NCBI RefSeq assembly: GCF_009914755.1
Contig: NC_060945.1
Reading direction: 5' to 3' (one strand)
Source: the human T2T-CHM13v2.0 reference genome, Homo sapiens
Length of the DNA stretch: 64,000 bases
Both the position numbers and the translations under genes were made by a program. The notes beneath the pieces are model-generated. The model made no database searches. It was not told the DNA's origin and worked only from the letters and a program-made list of their open reading frames with translations. Position 1 is the stretch's first letter; every line of letters starts with the position of its first letter. Positions 44,193 to 64,000 of the stretch are shown one piece after another.

Positions 44193-44483
44193 TGATCGCA
44201 CTTCAGCATCATTTATGTACTGCGGTAGTGCCCATGGAGGTTCCTGGACTGCATGTCTTGATTGGATGAGAAAAAAACCTCCAGGCTTACTCTGATTGGA
44301 CTTTATGATCATGTTCTGATTGGATGAGAGCAAGTCTTAACACAACCAATCACAGCATGAAAATAAAGTCCAATCAGAGTAGGCCTAGAGGTTTTTTTCT
44401 CATCCAATCAAGACATGCAGTCCAGGAACTGCATTTGCATAACCTCATATATAAAGGATGCTGAGGTGGCGTCAGGTCATTTC
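44193..44483. promoter_or_regulatory. Palindromic bidirectional promoter: 6 CCAAT boxes, octamer, TATA, Inr
   Basis: ATTGG at 44261, 44295, 44319 mirror CCAAT at 44404, 44370, 44346; ATTTGCAT 44433-44440; TATATAAA 44448-44455; Inr-like TCATTTC 44477-44483; minus-strand TACATAAA starting at 44219 and Inr-like TCACTTT with A at 44193. Confidence 0.8.
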
Positions 44484-44808
44484 AGACTCTTCTGTGTCGA
44501 GTGGAGGAGCAACTCTGTGCCCAGCTTAGAGGACTGGAAGAGGCCGCAATCTTCCGCCTGCTGGAGGGTGGAGGATGGATGGAGCCTGGAACCTGGGTCA
44601 CTACCTCGCTGCAGTTGGTGGTGGCGATAGAGCAGTAGGAGAGCATTCGGCAGCAGGAGCTTCTCCTGCTGGGCTGGAGGACTAGAAGGAAGAGGCACTG
44701 CCACATGCTGGAGGCTGGAACCTGTGCCACCATGGCTCGCCTCGCTGTGGTTGGTGGTGACATCGGAGACTGCAGCTCAGCCACAGTGGTAGAAATGTGA
44801 TGGTGTAG
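44479..44808 (+). ncRNA. Putative first exon (BAGE 5' leader-like) ending in a consensus donor AG/GTGAGT
   Basis: Predicted TSS about 30 nt after TATA; GAGCAACTCTGTGCCCAGCTTAGAGGAC resembles the recalled BAGE 5' UTR GAGCTGCTCTGTTCCCGGCTTAGAGGAC; donor GT at 44809. Confidence 0.55.
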
Positions 44809-44829
44809 GTGAGTTTTTCCGGGCCTGCC

Positions 44830-45400
44830 CTGTATGCCTCTGGGGTCAAGGGTTGGGTGTCCTATTGGGGTTCACTGCTAGAGGCTACCATGCCTGTGGC
44901 AGTGGTCTGGTTGGGGACACTCTCCGGGGTTGCATTGCTGGTGGTGGGGCAGGTTGCCTGGCTATCTGGGGCTATACTGCCTGTGGTGGCAGGGGTGGTG
45001 GGGGGAGGCAGATTGTGTACAATAGCTTGTATTGCTGGTGGCTGGGGAAGGATTAGGGGCGCTATTTTCTGCTGCACTGCCCGCAGCAGGGAGTGGGTTG
45101 GGTGGAGTTATCCAGGGCTACAATGCTGGCGGGGGGGTGGTTTAGGGGCGTTGTTGGGTGCTACACTGTGACTGGAGGGGTGCACCATTAGGAGCTGAAC
45201 TGCCTGTGGCTGGGTCAGATTGTGGGCACTATTGGGTGGTATGCTCCCTGAGGTGTGGGGGGAGTGTTTTTGTCAGGGGGTATTGGGGTTACATTGCCTG
45301 AAACTGTAGGGTGTGTTGGATGTGTTATCCAGGAGCTACACTGCTAGTGGCAGGGGGCAGATTAGGGGTGCCATGGGGACTACACTGCCAGTGGCATTGG
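44830..45400 (+). repeat. G-rich degenerate tandem array (about 45-50 bp units, GGGGCTACACTGCC..GTGG core)
   Basis: Recurring GCTACACTG/GCTATACTG/GTTACATTG anchors with G3-G7 runs. Confidence 0.8.
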
Positions 45401-45985
45401 CGAGCTGGTGAGGTGGCAGCAGCAGTGACAGCAGTGGCTTCCTTCTTCTCGTAGCTTCCAAGTAAGGTATCGTTTTCTTCTTCTCAGACTCCAGACTCTA
45501 GAAGGCGATTTTCTTCTGCTCGAGCTGGATTGCATGGTAGGGCCTCCACACCCACTGTGGTTTCCCAGCCTGCCCTCATGCTTTGTGTTGCGAAGATCAC
45601 GTGGGACTACCGGGCAGGGAGTAGTAGGCACCATGGGGGAAGTGGGAAACAGGGCACTGTTGGTGGAGGTGTCAGGAATGGGAACCAGCCCTTTGGTGGG
45701 GAGGGCTGGCTGGGTCTTAGTTTCTCCTACGCAGGCTCCCGGAGGAGGACAGCCTTGGTGGGCCCAGCAATTCCTGGCCAGGTGTACTTGGCCAAGGGCC
45801 TGTTTCAGTGAAGGCACTCACTCCCACCCCAGGCCCCAGTTCCTGGCCAGCTTTTGCCAGAAGGAGAGGTTGGACTTTGGAAGGTGGGTGTGAGTGCCTT
45901 CAATGAAACTGATCCCTGACACCCAGTCACCAGCCTAACGAGGTGAGGCTCTAATGGTTCCAATCCCTGAGTCCTGTTTTGGGCT

Positions 45986-46054
45986 TTTCTGGCTTTGCCT
46001 GCCCAGCTGCTCCAAGCCACTCTGAAGAAGGAGAAGGAGGAGTCGCCTGTGGTA
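45986..46054 (+). pseudogene. BAGE-like coding remnant without a start codon
   Basis: Translates [23 protein letters not shown] versus recalled BAGE1 [21 protein letters not shown]; in-frame TGA at 45968 and no ATG between it and the match. Confidence 0.75.
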
Positions 46055-60974: not shown

Positions 60975-61606
60975 TTTTTCTTTTATTTTTTGGGTCAGAG
61001 TTTCATTGTATCACTCAGGCTGGAGTGCAGTGGCACAATCACGGCTCACTGCAGTCTTGACCTCCTGGGCTCAAGTGATCCTCCTGCCTCAGCCTCCCAG
61101 GTAGCTGGGACCATGGGTGTGTACTGTATGCCTGACTAATTATTTTTTCTTTTTCTTTTTTTTTTTTTTTTGAGACAGAGTCTCGCTCTGTCACCCAGGC
61201 TGGAGTGCAGTGGTCCGATCTCGGCTCACTGCAAGCTCCGCCTCCTGGGTTCACGCCATTCTCCTGCCTCAGTCTCCCGAGTAGCTGGGACTACAGGTGC
61301 CCACCACCACGCCCGGCTACTTTTTCGTATTTTTAATAGAGACAGAGTTTCACCGTGTTAGCCAGGATGGTCTCGATCTCGTGACCTCACGATCCGCCCG
61401 CCTCGGCCTCCAAAAGTGCTGGGATTACAGGTGTGAGCCACCGCACCTGGCCGCCTAACTAATTATTATTATTATTTTAATTTTCTTGTAGAGATAGTTC
61501 TGGCTTCATTGCCCATTCTGGTCCTGAATACCTGGCCTTAGGAGATCCTCCTATCTTGACTTCCCAAAATGCTGGGATTACAGGTGTGAGCCACTGTGGC
61601 CAGCCT
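60975..61606 (-). mobile_element. AluJ split by a nested AluY (about 61144-61452)
   Basis: J right arm before and J left arm after; TSD GCCTGACTAATTATT/GCCTAACTAATTATT. Confidence 0.9.
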
Positions 61607-62501
61607 ATAAGTTTTGTTTTAAAGTTAGATTGAATGACAATTCCCTAGAAAATTTTATTTTCTAAACCTAACTAACTGGATAAAGAATATATTGATAAAA
61701 ACTGGGAAATTGATCAATTTGTCATACTGAATTATTTTTTGAATTTGCCCTCTTCCCAAATACCTTGAAATGATGGAAACAAAATTAAAACTTTACTAAT
61801 AAAGTATTAAATGGGTGAAGATTTTATATATATAAAATTATATCTGTTATATTTTTATGTATGCAATTATATAGTTTTCATCTTATATTTAAATTCTATT
61901 TTTTTAAAACCACCCAATTAGGTAATAATAGAACTCCGGTCTTAAAGTAAGAGTGTATGTACACACATGCACATGTGTATATGTGTATATAAAATTTTTG
62001 TCATGGGAGTTTTATATATAATTAAGATAGAAATTATATATTATTGCACACATTTTTACACATATGTAATATTCTCTACCATATGTATGTAAAATACACC
62101 CATATGAATTATGTATAACATAAATATTTGTGTTATCCTGAAACATAAACGTAGATAATCATGTTTTAGAATGGGAATACTCAGGAGTATAGGGGTACCT
62201 GTTCTCCCATTAGTCAGTCTGTGAATTCAATATTTATGTTTTCTCATCCAGAATTTCTCTGGGACCTGACAAGCTGACTCTCATGCTTGTGTGTAAGAGG
62301 AAATGTTCTAGAATAGCTGGGAAGGTGGTGAAAGTAGCAGCAACAACGAAGCACAGTGAGGTGAAACTTGCCCTGCTGGATATGAAACCTCGTAATACTA
62401 GAGTAATTTGAAAAGTGTGGCATTGGCACAGGAAAAGACAGACAAATCAAATTAGTCTAGAATTGTGGACAAGTAGGAATAGAGTTTATAATGAGGATGG
62501 C

Positions 62502-62815
62502 TTTCTTTTTCTTTCTTTCTTTTTTTTTTTTTTTGAGATGAAGTCTCACTCTGTTTCCCCAGCTGGTGTGCAATGGTGTGATCTCGGCTCACTGCAACTG
62601 CCACCTCCCAGGCTCAAGCAATTCTCCTGCCTCAGCCTCCCAAGTAGCTGGGATTACTGGCGCATGTCACCATGCCCGGTTAATTTTTGTATTTTTAGTA
62701 GAAAAGAAGTTTCACCATGTTGGCCAGGCTGGCCTCGAACTCCCGACCTCAAGTGATCTTCCCGTCTCAGCATCCCAGAGTGCTGGGATTACAGGAGGAG
62801 CCACCGCTCCTGGCC
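62502..62815 (-). mobile_element. AluS
   Basis: Full antisense dimer. Confidence 0.93.
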
Positions 62816-63364
62816 TTTTTTTTCTTTATTTGCTATTTCAGTTCCATAGAAGCAAGCAAAGAGTAACATAACAAATATCCATCTACCTACCATCTGTGAT
62901 TACAAAACTTAGTATTTTATCATCCTTGCTTCACAATTATTTAATAAAGACAATACTTCCTCTGCACAAATGCTTACCTTAAAACTACTCTTGAATTCTT
63001 TTCACAATTGACTTATCAACTCCCAAATTTAAAACCATGTATTTTTGTCTTTATATGCCTTAGACATTTATAGAAAGGTATTTACTGAGCAGTTACTATG
63101 TGCCAGATATTATGCTGTTTTTATATACTGTTTTTACTTTATATAGCTAATTATATTATTTGTCACATACTAACCTATTTTAAATATAAAAAGAAATGAT
63201 GCATTAATGTTTTCAAACCTTGGTAACTTTTATTAAGTAAATACCTGAGAGGAAGCTTTTCCTGGTAATTGTGGTTTTATTTATGTATCTATAGTTATAA
63301 TTTATTAGAAGTACACTTGGTGTTTTAGTTCTTATTAATTCTATTTTTTTCCCATCCTGTTTAG

Positions 63365-63542
63365 ATGGTTTCCTAGAAACATGATTGTTTATTGGCGTTG
63401 ATCTCGCAGTCTGGTGAGAACTTCTTTACTGATAATGTCAAGTTCAGTTTATCCTCCCAACCAAGGAGCATTCAGCACAGAACAAAGTCGTTCTCCTCCT
63501 CACTCTGTAAAGTATACGTTTCCCAGCACCCACCACCAGCAG
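63365..63542 (+). pseudogene. NCOR1P: Unprocessed NCOR1 paralog/pseudogene (NCOR1P family; copy not identifiable), first coding exon; ATG at 63435
   Basis: Polypyrimidine tract and TTTAG acceptor, 70-nt leader, 36 open codons MSSSVYPPNQGAFSTEQSRSPPHSVKYTFPSTHHQQ (31/36 identical to the recalled NCOR1 N-terminus MSSSGYPPNQGAFSTEQSRYPPHSVQYTFPNTRHQQ), donor CAG/GTAAGG. Confidence 0.93.
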
Positions 63543-64000
63543 GTAAGGAACAAATGCTATGCAAATTGCACGTTTTTTTGTTTTTCTTTACTTTTCCTAT
63601 TTAATACACATGTTGGTAGAAACCACCAAATTTGCCTTTTTTTTTAAGTGGCAAGAGCTATTTACAAAGACAAGGAACCAAAGGTTGGGAATTAATTATT
63701 TCTGTCTTCTTACTGTGGCTTTATGCCGATTTCAGGAGTTGAACTTGTCTTTGTTTTGATGACAGGAGTTGATGATAAATAGAAAACTTATCAATTCTCT
63801 AGAATTTCTAGGGTAAGACCTATATTTATACTCCCAAGTTGTGGTTGAGTTTTAAGCTGGCTAGATAACTTGGCATGTCTTGAGTGATGGCCAGGATAAA
63901 GACCTCTGTCTTCTTGAGAGATTGATGGTAGGAAGATTTGCATAGTAGGTAGGAAGGAAGGAAGGGATGGTAGATAGGAAGGAAGACTTTATTATAGGAA

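What the first reader, a model, noticed from the sequence alone, without database searches (positions are those of the whole stretch)
44479..63548. Candidate promoter-swap chimeric gene: REP522/BAGE-like exon 1 spliced to the NCOR1 first coding exon
Seen: TATA/Inr-defined exon 44479-44808 with a consensus AG/GTGAGT donor; 18.6 kb downstream on the same strand an NCOR1 exon with intact acceptor, ATG, 36 open codons and donor; no recognisable NCOR1 exon 1 or CpG island in between. Known: BAGE genes arose by joining a related first exon to duplicated KMT2C/MLL3 exons; the NCOR1 N-terminal region lies in repression domain 1. Inference: the same promoter cassette captured a second chromatin-regulator fragment, suggesting a general gene-birth system in pericentromeric duplications. 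The product could be a lncRNA, a short NCOR1-like protein or a cancer-testis-type antigen. Downstream exons lie outside the window.
Basis: partly seen in the sequence, partly recalled or inferred. Interest (0 to 1): 0.85.

Follow-up and report, generated by a model that had tools for sequence, protein, structure and literature searches.

The report
REP522 promoter beside NCOR1 pseudogene fragment
A repeat-borne promoter with its own first exon really does sit upstream of a promoterless copy of the start of the NCOR1 gene, much as in the BAGE cancer-testis genes, but nothing shows that the two are spliced together and the piece looks like a decaying pseudogene.

Summary
The sequence features are all present. 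A palindromic CCAAT/TATA/Inr promoter lies at 44129-44539, followed by an exon-like stretch 44479-44808 that ends in TAG|GTGAGT. The NCOR1 ATG exon lies 18.6 kb downstream at 63365-63542, and there is no CpG island or NCOR1 exon 1 between them.

The layout is a true promoter swap at the DNA level. NCOR1 homology starts at 48738, inside an Alu of parental intron 1. There it is joined non-homologously to the usual flank of the repeat.

The join is neither chr21-specific nor recent. The same junction occurs in 7 pericentromeric copies (chr21, 13, 14, 17 twice, 20, 7). These copies are about 5-6% diverged from NCOR1.

The BAGE N-terminal coding exons lie in the same repeat family at about 70-76% identity, so "BAGE-like" holds. 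The window, however, lacks the BAGE ATG, the BAGE donor and the BAGE exon-2 acceptor.

No RNA data could be consulted, so the splice is untested. RefSeq's curated transcript starts in an Alu at 57573. A REP522-first transcript would carry 8 upstream ATGs. The chr21 ORF stops after 80 codons and the chr7 copy has a stop in exon 2.

REP522 is already reported as a cancer-activated promoter of lncRNAs.

Verdict: a real mosaic and a plausible opportunistic lncRNA. It is not a demonstrated new gene.

The parts
43000..44128 (+). C/T-rich array of degenerate ~70-82-nt repeats on the left flank of the REP522-type element
   Evidence: families D1-D6 (60-89% identical copies). One search finds only short sub-arrays.
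44129..44539 (.). Palindromic promoter core of the REP522-type element. Inner arms are 44240-44326 and 44343-44429; the centre is near 44335.
   Evidence: I1: 87 nt, 92% complementary. (44129-44326 vs 44343-44539, 77.5%). It is the most conserved part of the family: 0.93-0.99 column identity over 44310-44409 in 16 representative copies.
44346..44408 (+). Three CCAAT boxes (at 44346, 44370 and 44404) upstream of the plus-strand TATA box. Mirror copies read ATTGG at 44261, 44295 and 44319.
   Evidence: Binding of NF-Y is inferred from textbook knowledge and was not tested.
44448..44455 (+). TATA box TATATAAA
   Evidence: TATAAA is kept in 24 of 30 family copies. It is deleted in the chr20 paralogue.
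44479..44808 (+). Predicted non-coding first exon of the cassette. It starts at the Inr TCA(+1)TTTC and holds four ATGs with short ORFs of 19-36 codons.
   Evidence: The start is a prediction from TATA/Inr spacing; no CAGE or cDNA data were seen.
44809..44814 (+). 5' splice-site GTGAGT after ...GTAG
   Evidence: It is kept in 8 of 8 close paralogues and in 22 of 24 alignable family copies. It is the best-scoring donor within 2 kb. It is not more conserved than the intron beside it.
44815..48737 (+). G-rich right arm and usual downstream flank of the REP522-type element. The stretch 45539-46515 is ~70% like the region holding BAGE coding exon 2, but the acceptor is missing (TTTGGG in place of TTGTAG).
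   Evidence: The stretch 46400-48737 is shared with many loci that lack NCOR1; 11 listed matches end exactly at query base 2338, which is window 48737.
48737..48738 (.). Breakpoint joining the REP522 flank to NCOR1 intron 1. It is a non-homologous join inside an antisense Alu of the parent, with 2-3 bases of microhomology.
   Evidence: Copies without NCOR1 continue ...AATCATT|GGTAAAAAAA. The parent reads ...TTGTATT|TTTTAGTAGAGAC.
48738..63364 (+). NCOR1 intron-1-derived DNA, collinear with parent chr17:16112538 down to exon 2
   Evidence: about 91-94% identity in blocks.
57573..57651 (+). First exon of RefSeq NR_135512.1 (NCOR1P4), inside an antisense Alu that the parental intron also has. The donor is CAG|GTGTGT. 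Base 57573 follows CG, not AG, so it is a cDNA 5' end or start site and not an acceptor.
   Evidence: Hub table; (donor 9.4 bits).
63365..63542 (+). Copy of the NCOR1 ATG exon (parental exon 2). The acceptor is tttag|A, the ATG is at 63435, 36 codons are open and the donor is CAG|GTAAGG. There are five amino-acid changes against the parent.
63543..64000 (+). Start of NCOR1 intron 2 homology, which runs on to 65626 beyond the window. An Alu-flanked gap follows that removes 22 kb of the parent. A second NCOR1 block then runs from 68281 to at least 74007. It holds a 61-codon exon at 73537-73719 with an in-frame TGA.

Best explanation
The interval is a mosaic joint inside a pericentromeric segmental duplication. 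It is not a demonstrated gene.

WHAT IT IS
- A REP522-type interspersed repeat sits upstream. It is a palindromic, bidirectional CCAAT/TATA promoter that carries its own non-coding first exon and splice donor.
- The repeat is followed by 3.9 kb of its usual flank.
- At 48737|48738 a 5'-truncated genomic copy of NCOR1 was joined to that flank by a non-homologous break inside an Alu of NCOR1 intron 1.
- The copy has no NCOR1 promoter or exon 1. It keeps the ATG exon. After an Alu-flanked loss of 22 kb it keeps a later exon.

HISTORY
- The join happened once, roughly at the depth of the human-macaque divergence. It probably happened in 17p11.
- Duplication then carried it to chr7, chr20 and the acrocentric short arms.
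- The chr21, chr13 and chr14 copies are 99.5-99.8% alike.

WHAT IT PROBABLY DOES
- The fragment is transcribed as the non-coding RNA NCOR1P4 from a start in an intronic Alu.
- The REP522 promoter is CpG-depleted and is presumably silenced in somatic tissue.
- Where REP522 is derepressed (early embryo, tumours), its strong donor could splice to downstream acceptors, including the NCOR1 exon. That would give an opportunistic lncRNA.
- No selected product is expected.

SHOWN: the anatomy, the junction, the copy number, the divergence and the decay of the ORF.
INFERRED: silencing, derepression, and any splicing from 44808.
For: STRUCTURE
- NCOR1 homology is limited to 48735-65626 and to 68281 onwards.
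- No REP522-type sequence was found in the 70 kb of the parental locus that was examined.
- The junction was read to the base against three copies without NCOR1 and against the parent.

ONE EVENT, SEVEN COPIES
- The NCOR1 exon has 8 genomic matches out of 8 candidates scored: the parent plus 7 copies.
- Each of the 7 copies has the cassette 18.9-21.7 kb upstream on the same strand.
- The six other NCOR1-bearing copies run through the junction.

AGE
- K2P distance to the parent is 0.053-0.066.
- Distance between lineages is 0.037-0.048.
- Distance among chr21, chr13 and chr14 is 0.002-0.005.

DECAY
- chr7 has a stop in exon 2.
- The chr21 lineage has CGA>TGA in the next exon, and it is the only lineage with that stop among the 5 lineages plus the parent examined.
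- In the 36 codons there are 5 replacement and 2 silent changes.

CODING HANDICAP
- 8 ATGs precede the NCOR1 ATG in a REP522-first transcript, against 2 in the RefSeq-type transcript.

ANNOTATION
- The curated NR_135512.1 starts at 57573. No model is annotated at 44479 (hub table).

PROMOTER STATE
- CpG o/e is 0.26 over 44200-44900.

LITERATURE (passages only)
- REP522 is about 1.8 kb, largely palindromic and enriched among the most cancer-activated CAGE promoters (PMC4896275).
- It gives cancer-specific lncRNAs in NSCLC lines (PMC6925957, citing Horie 2017).
- Its RNA peaks at the 8-cell stage (PMC6545021).
- The REP522 region at BAGE is H3K9me3-marked in human liver (PMC3560060).
Against: - No RNA evidence of any kind could be consulted, so absence of the chimeric splice is not shown.
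- The cassette in chr21, chr13 and chr14 is intact (TATA, Inr and all six CCAAT boxes). It has the strongest donor for 2 kb, and the NCOR1 exon has a good acceptor. Splicing would therefore be expected if the promoter fires.
- The cDNA 5' end at 57573 lies inside an Alu, downstream of the usual Alu-exon acceptor (TTTTGAG| at 57530). It may be a truncated end of a longer transcript.
- Reads from three near-identical acrocentric copies multi-map, which could hide support from annotation pipelines.
- pN/pS against the parent is 0.23-0.68. That is below 1, but it includes the constrained parental branch and rests on only 13-14 differences.
- The name REP522 comes from the literature description and the BAGE link, not from a repeat-masking run.
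Confidence: 0.62

Rival explanations
1. BAGE-like chimeric transcription unit. In germ line, early embryo or hypomethylated tumours, the REP522 cassette is the true promoter and first exon of NCOR1P4 and its paralogues. The 44808 donor is spliced to the NCOR1 exon at 63365, either directly or through the Alu exon. This gives a regulated cancer-testis-type RNA.
For: - The orientation is the same and the spacing is constant in 7 of 7 copies.
- TATA, Inr and CCAAT boxes are intact, and the donor is the best within 2 kb.
- The NCOR1 fragment has no promoter of its own.
- BAGE shows that this repeat family can supply a promoter and first exons to a duplicated gene fragment (PMC11838408, PMC3560060).
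- REP522 promoters are cancer-activated and drive lncRNAs (PMC4896275 and PMC6925957, passages).
- The annotated 5' end at 57573 is not a splice acceptor and may be incomplete.
Against: - No transcript evidence was seen.
- RefSeq RS_2025_08 has no model starting at the cassette (hub table).
- The donor is no better conserved than the neighbouring intron, so there is no sign of selection for splicing.
- The chr20 paralogue has lost its TATA box.
- BAGE uses another donor and a nearby exon 2 that the window lacks.
- The 18.6-kb interval holds several antisense Alus that could trap the donor.
Confidence: 0.3
2. The locus encodes a short NCOR1-like protein or antigen. On chr21 this would be 80 residues: NCOR1 residues 1-36 joined to 44 residues of a later exon. 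In the chr17 and chr20 copies the product would be longer.
For: - The ATG, the 36 open codons and both splice sites are kept in 7 of 7 copies.
- The next retained exon is in frame, with 61 codons and phase 0 at both ends.
- The chr17 (two copies) and chr20 copies are open through both exons.
- pN/pS against the parent is below 1.
Against: - Two of five lineages carry stops.
- There are 8 uATGs in a REP522-first mRNA and 2 in the RefSeq form.
- Amino-acid changes accumulate freely: 5 of 36 in chr21.
- The pN/pS value includes the constrained parental branch and rests on only 13-14 differences.
- The intervening parental exons are deleted, so no intact NCOR1 domain could be made.
- RefSeq classes the transcript as non-coding (hub table).
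Confidence: 0.03
3. The cassette copy here is simply dead heterochromatin. It is never transcribed. NCOR1P4 RNA arises only from the Alu or other local starts, and the juxtaposition has no consequence at all. (This is a sub-case of the best explanation, scored on its own.)
For: - CpG depletion points to long-term methylation.
- H3K9me3 covers the REP522 region at BAGE in liver (PMC3560060, passage).
- There is no annotation at 44479 (hub table).
- The mirror TATA box on the minus strand is mutated in chr21, chr13 and chr14.
Against: - The plus-strand promoter elements are intact.
- REP522 RNA as a class is detected in 8-cell embryos and tumours (PMC6545021 and PMC4896275, passages), although not assigned to this copy.
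Confidence: 0.2

Closest known systems
BAGE gene family (BAGE1-5; juxtacentromeric, cancer-testis)
   Same: - The repeat family supplies the 5' end. BAGE loci carry the CCAAT palindrome core at 76% identity.
- They carry a homologue of the exon-1 3' half with TAG|GTG at 72-74% identity.
- Their PF08180-matching coding exon lies in sequence 70% like window 45539-46515.
- A duplicated fragment of a chromatin regulator lies downstream (KMT2C/MLL3 according to PMC11838408 and PMC4041455, passages).
- The setting is pericentromeric and the copies spread by duplication.
   Different: - The window has no PF08180 match: 0 of the 11 genomic hits lie in it.
- It has no ATG at the BAGE start position.
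- It has a weak donor there, GCA|GTAGGA at 2.1 bits.
- It has no exon-2 acceptor.
- The BAGE locus examined lacks the TATA box that the window has.
- BAGE is reported to be under selection (Ruault 2003; abstract recalled, not seen here). The NCOR1 copies show stops.
- I did not verify the KMT2C-derived part myself. The 4 kb downstream of one REP522 copy on chr21 showed no chr7 KMT2C match.
NCOR1P1-P3 and the other unprocessed NCOR1 pseudogene copies (chr17 twice, chr20, chr7, chr13, chr14)
   Same: - They share the junction, the cassette, the exon content and the order.
- NCOR1P4 is one member of this 7-copy set.
   Different: - Disabling changes differ by lineage. The chr21 lineage has a stop in the second retained exon, chr7 has a stop in the ATG exon, and chr20 has lost the TATA box.
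- Which named pseudogene is which copy was not checked.
Repeat- or transposon-initiated chimeric transcripts (for example LTR-driven 'onco-exaptation'; REP522-driven lncRNAs in FANTOM5 CAGE)
   Same: - A normally silenced repeat supplies a promoter, a first exon and a donor upstream of foreign exons.
- REP522 is reported as enriched among cancer-activated promoters (PMC4896275 passage) and as giving cancer-specific lncRNAs (PMC6925957 passage).
   Different: - Here the link is made by segmental duplication and breakage, not by insertion of the repeat next to a gene.
- The chimeric RNA itself is not shown.
- The comparison with LTR promoters is from general knowledge.

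Membership tests
REP522 interspersed repeat | About 1.8 kb, largely palindromic, multi-copy interspersed element (description in the PMC4896275 passage) | tested here: met
   The palindrome arms are 44129-44326 and 44343-44539, with a weaker outer pair 44052-44110 and 44705-44761. There are at least 108 genomic matches on many chromosomes. 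The palindromic part seen here is about 0.7 kb, which is shorter than 1.8 kb.
REP522 interspersed repeat | Classified as REP522 by RepeatMasker, Repbase or Dfam | not testable with these tools
   No repeat library is on hand, so the name is inferred. The inference rests on BAGE loci being said to contain a large REP522 region (PMC3560060 passage) and on BAGE loci containing homologues of this element.
REP522 interspersed repeat | Promoter activity (CAGE starts; cancer or embryo expression) | not testable with these tools
   Only sequence features were available: TATA, Inr and 3+3 CCAAT boxes.
BAGE gene family | N-terminal peptide matching Pfam PF08180 | tested here: not met
   Eleven genomic matches were found and none lies in chr21:9052001-9116000. 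The homologous stretch of the window (about 45978-46050) is 71% alike, but it has a 6-base insertion and no acceptor.
BAGE gene family | ATG mini-exon ending in a GTAAGA donor within the repeat | tested here: not met
   BAGE loci read ATGGCGGCTGGAGCG|GTAAGA. The window reads GTGGCGATAGAGCA|GTAGGA at the homologous place. That these five codons are the BAGE start is my reading, based on the Pfam match beginning at model position 6 and on recall of the protein.
BAGE gene family | KMT2C/MLL3-derived downstream exons | tested here: not met
   Downstream of the window's cassette lies NCOR1-derived DNA, not KMT2C-derived DNA.
Unprocessed (duplicated) pseudogene of NCOR1 | Collinear with the parental genomic locus, introns included | tested here: met
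   Window 48735-65626 corresponds to chr17:16112538-16094682, and 68281-74007 corresponds to 16072712-16067000.
Unprocessed (duplicated) pseudogene of NCOR1 | Incomplete and/or disabled relative to the parent | tested here: met
   There is no exon 1 or promoter and 22 kb of the parent is missing. There is an in-frame TGA in the second retained exon.
Repeat-initiated chimeric transcript | RNA with its 5' end in the repeat and a splice junction to the foreign exon | not testable with these tools
   There was no access to RNA-seq, CAGE or cDNA data. The curated transcript starts at 57573 (hub table).

The most novel reading that the evidence does not exclude
REP522 is a portable bidirectional promoter with a first exon and a donor. 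Pericentromeric reshuffling has placed it in front of fragments of at least two chromatin regulators: KMT2C, giving BAGE, and NCOR1, giving the seven-copy NCOR1P family. In REP522-permissive states (8-cell embryo, germ line, hypomethylated tumours) the NCOR1P copies are transcribed from the cassette as a BAGE-like cancer-testis RNA family. The copies that are still open (chr17, chr20) could yield short peptides bearing the NCOR1 N-terminus.
Probability: 0.12. Interest if true: 0.6.

Novelty: new member of a known kind. Interest (0 to 1): 0.33.

Why it matters
If REP522-initiated NCOR1P transcripts exist, the NCOR1P family would be a second worked example, after BAGE, of a pericentromeric repeat promoter adopting a duplicated gene fragment. 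That bears on how new transcription units arise in segmental duplications. It could also add tumour-restricted RNAs or antigens.

As it stands the value is descriptive:
- a base-resolved junction;
- the finding that one old event underlies seven copies;
- the observation that the BAGE N-terminal exons lie inside the same repeat family.

The locus is an annotated pseudogene, the repeat is already known as a cancer-activated promoter, and the coding sequence is decaying. The finding is therefore of modest interest until RNA data are examined.

Tried and rejected
The full intervals between the cassette and the NCOR1 exon were therefore not compared in the paralogues. Only about 3.5-kb loci around the cassette, the exon and the junction were compared.
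- The loci could not be cut out. The Alu first exon was compared with the parent only, not with the paralogues.
- Test for special constraint on the donor or TATA box. A conservation profile over 16 representative copies shows the CCAAT core as the conserved part (0.93-0.99). The donor (0.84-0.85) is no better than the mean (0.86) or the adjacent intron. I rejected it as evidence for splicing.
- pN/pS of the two retained exons against the parent is 0.23-0.68 on 13-14 differences. I judged it uninformative.
- A REP522 copy at chr21:11.86 Mb turned out to be collinear with the window on its minus strand. The 4 kb downstream matched chr13:18.10 and chr18:14.81 Mb, L1-like repeats and chr4, but not KMT2C. 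The KMT2C link of BAGE therefore rests on the literature passages.
- The flank that continues in copies without NCOR1 was not found again within window coordinates 1-84000. The NCOR1 block is therefore not a short insertion.
- Rfam found no family in 42000-64000.
- Kaczkowski 2016 and Grunau 2006 are not held. Horie 2017 and Ruault 2002/2003 were seen only as citations. No supplementary tables were opened. Lists of REP522-overlapping CAGE promoters in those papers could bear directly on the claim.
- Literature searches: 'REP522' found 14 papers. 'NCOR1P1-4' found 13 papers, all incidental mentions in those read. The phrase 'NCOR1 pseudogene' had 0 occurrences in each of the 15 listed of 847 papers. 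None describes a REP522-NCOR1P transcript.

Full report
OBSERVATION

The window is T2T-CHM13 chr21:9052001-9116000 (hub note).

TATATAAA lies at 44448-44455. An initiator-like TCATTTC places its A at 44479. The stretch 44479-44808 ends ...GTGATGGTGTAG followed by GTGAGT.

The promoter sits in a palindrome. The inner arms 44240-44326 and 44343-44429 are 92% complementary. The outer arms 44129-44326 and 44343-44539 are 77.5% complementary. Three CCAAT boxes lie on each strand.

The NCOR1 exon lies at 63365-63542, with acceptor tttag|A, the ATG at 63435, 36 open codons and donor CAG|GTAAGG. I checked it against the parental gene. The exon and its flanks match chr17:16096509-16097214 at 94%. The chr21 peptide differs from the parental one at 5 of 36 residues.

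Between the two exons there is no CpG island outside Alus. There is also no NCOR1 exon 1, because NCOR1 homology only begins at 48735.

WHAT THE UPSTREAM ELEMENT IS

The 700 bases around the palindrome have at least 108 matches in the genome (40 of 101 candidates were scored, so this is a lower bound).

Among the 30 best copies (70-100% identity), 24 of 30 keep TATAAA. Of the 24 that can be aligned at the donor, 22 keep TAG|GTGAG. Promoter, exon and donor are therefore features of the repeat family and not a chance constellation.

A conservation profile over 16 representative copies shows that the CCAAT core (44310-44409) is the most conserved part, at 0.93-0.99. The donor (0.84-0.85) is no better conserved than the mean (0.86) or the intron beside it. 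I therefore do not claim selection on the donor.

The element fits the published description of REP522: about 1.8 kb, largely palindromic, an unclassified interspersed repeat, strongly enriched among the most cancer-activated CAGE promoters (PMC4896275, meeting abstract, passage read). Other passages say that:
- REP522 gives cancer-specific lncRNAs in lung cancer lines (PMC6925957, citing Horie 2017);
- its RNA peaks at the 8-cell stage (PMC6545021);
- it is enriched in lncRNA exons (bioRxiv 10.1101/189753);
- the BAGE locus holds a large REP522 region that is H3K9me3-marked in human liver and active in a mouse carrying human chromosome 21 (PMC3560060).

I had no repeat library, so the name REP522 is inferred rather than computed.

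THE BAGE COMPARISON, TESTED

A six-frame search of the genome with Pfam PF08180 (BAGE) gave 11 matches. None lies in the window.

Around six of these matches the DNA is homologous to the window's element:
- The BAGE coding exon (…[24 protein letters not shown]…) lies in sequence 70% like window 45539-46515.
- An ATG followed by four codons and a GTAAGA donor lies at the place homologous to window ~44617-44635.
- One BAGE locus that reaches further upstream has the CCAAT palindrome core at 76% identity but no TATA box.

The BAGE 5' exons therefore belong to this repeat family, which supports 'BAGE-like'.

The window itself is not a BAGE gene. It has no ATG at that place. The donor there is weak (GCA|GTAGGA, 2.1 bits, against 10.4 for 44808, matrix recalled). 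The exon-2 acceptor reads TTTGGG instead of TTGTAG.

That BAGE arose by juxtacentromeric reshuffling of KMT2C/MLL3 I saw only as statements in PMC11838408 and PMC4041455. The original paper (Ruault 2003) is recalled and was not read. My own look 4 kb downstream of one chr21 copy found no KMT2C match.

THE JUNCTION

Window 46400-48737 is shared with many loci that carry the element but no NCOR1. Eleven listed matches end exactly at query base 2338, which is window 48737. The six other NCOR1-bearing copies run through to the query end.

Read base by base, the sequences are:
- window: ...AAAATCATT|TTTTAGTAGAGAC...
- three copies without NCOR1 (chr17:20.81 Mb, chr17:28.03 Mb, chr9:106.72 Mb): ...AAAATCATT|GGTAAAAAAA...
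- parental NCOR1 intron 1...TTTGTATT|TTTTAGTAGAGAC..., in the middle of an antisense Alu.

The breakpoint is therefore 48737|48738. It is a non-homologous join with two or three bases of microhomology, 3.9 kb downstream of the cassette donor and 14.6 kb upstream of the NCOR1 exon. No element of this kind was found in the 70 kb of the parental locus that I examined.

EXTENT AND FATE OF THE NCOR1 PIECE

- Block A, window 48735-65626, corresponds to parent 16112538-16094682.
- Block B, from 68281 to at least 74007 (beyond the window), corresponds to parent 16072712-16067000.
- The 22 kb of the parent between the blocks is missing, with Alus at both edges.
- Block B holds a 61-codon NCOR1 exon at 73537-73719 (DPAFGGKHEAPSSP…). 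In chr21 it carries an in-frame TGA where the parent has CGA.
- The last exon of RefSeq NR_135512.1 ends at 73832, inside the following intron (hub table).
- Joined in frame, the chr21 ORF would be 80 codons.
- In the four other lineages whose second exon I read (chr17 twice, chr20, chr7) that exon is open. chr7 has a stop in the ATG exon.
- pN/pS against the parent is 0.23-0.68 on 13-14 differences. It includes the constrained parental branch, so it says little.

ONE OLD EVENT, SEVEN COPIES

The NCOR1 exon has exactly eight genomic matches: the parent plus copies on chr21, chr13, chr14, chr17 (two), chr20 and chr7 (8 of 8 candidates scored). Each copy has the cassette 18.9-21.7 kb upstream on the same strand. 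Each also has the second block downstream.

K2P distances over about 3.7 kb are as follows:
- 0.053-0.066 to the parent;
- 0.037-0.048 between lineages;
- 0.016 between the two chr17 copies;
- 0.002-0.005 among chr21, chr13 and chr14.

The first figure is near the human-macaque level and the second is near great-ape depth. This calibration comes from general knowledge and is not computed here. The acrocentric copies are either very recent or homogenised.

One oddity remains. On the cassette side, the chr17:20.82 Mb copy lacks NCOR1 yet groups with the two chr17 NCOR1-bearing copies. Gene conversion or a secondary exchange would explain this, and I did not resolve it.

IS IT SPLICED?

I could not reach any RNA data, so the central claim is untested.

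In favour:
- The cassette in chr21, chr13 and chr14 is intact.
- 44808 is the best donor within 2 kb.
- The NCOR1 exon has a long pyrimidine tract and AG.
- The NCOR1 piece has no promoter of its own.
- The annotated 5' end at 57573 follows CG rather than AG and lies inside an antisense Alu, downstream of the usual Alu-exon acceptor at 57530. The parental intron also contains this Alu. The cDNA may therefore be 5'-incomplete.

Against:
- The curated transcript starts there, and RefSeq annotates nothing at 44479 (hub table).
- The cassette is CpG-depleted, with o/e 0.26, as expected of a methylated repeat.
- BAGE uses different splice sites.

A cassette-first RNA would carry eight ATGs ahead of the NCOR1 ATG, two of them in good context. 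The RefSeq form carries two. Translation of the NCOR1-like ORF from a cassette-first RNA is therefore unlikely.

VERDICT

The functional half is unproven.

I put about 0.3 on detectable cassette-to-NCOR1 splicing in some REP522-permissive cell type, and about 0.03 on a translated product.

Because REP522 promoter activity, BAGE reshuffling and the NCOR1P4 pseudogene are each already known, this is a new member of a known kind and of modest interest. My literature searches found no description of the REP522-NCOR1P link: 14 papers for REP522, 13 for NCOR1P1-4, and the phrase 'NCOR1 pseudogene' absent from every one of the 15 papers listed. Supplements and several key subscription papers could not be seen.

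Noticed in passing
window 44185-44225, minus strand: The palindrome's other arm carries a mirror promoter. On the minus strand the TATA-like box reads TACATAAAT in chr21, chr13 and chr14, but TATATAAAT in the five other close paralogues. It is followed by an Inr-like TCACTTT and an exon-like stretch with a possible donor GAG|GTAGGA near 44027. The element therefore looks bidirectional, and the minus-strand arm is weakened in the acrocentric copies.
   Followed up: partly
L061-L066 (chr13:10.86, 13.83 and 10.11 Mb; chr21:7.88 and 10.71 Mb; chr22:11.10 Mb): The whole short BAGE ORF lies inside REP522-type sequence and not in KMT2C-derived DNA. This covers the ATG mini-exon and the exon encoding VFLALSAQ…CFIF*. 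In L064 the ATG mini-exon sits in a 20-nt tandem repeat that holds three ATG copies.
   Followed up: partly
beyond the window, coordinates 65626-68281 (L023): An Alu-flanked gap removes 22 kb of the parental NCOR1 locus (chr17:16094682-16072712). The exons between the ATG exon and the DPAFGG… exon were presumably lost with it.
   Followed up: partly
G000 chr20:25817970-25818438: An extra, isolated fragment is 96% like the flank of the second retained NCOR1 exon. It lies about 290 kb from the chr20 pseudogene copy and on the opposite strand.
   Followed up: no
L030 (chr17:20.82 Mb) compared with L032/L033: A cassette copy without NCOR1 nests among the NCOR1-bearing copies in the cassette-side tree (K2P 0.043-0.044 to the chr17 pair). 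Its flank nevertheless continues with the pre-junction sequence. This suggests gene conversion or exchange between chr17 pericentromeric copies.
   Followed up: no
window 44252-44271, 44310-44329 and 44398-44417: The repeated motif TCTCATCCAATCA (and its complement) around the CCAAT boxes is one base away from what I recall as the DUX4 binding consensus. This could fit the reported 8-cell peak of REP522 RNA. The consensus is recalled from memory and was not tested.
   Followed up: no
window 44479-64000 and its chr13 and chr14 paralogues: The chr21, chr13 and chr14 copies differ by only 0.2-0.5%. Short reads therefore cannot be assigned to chr21, and annotation support may be diluted.
   Followed up: partly
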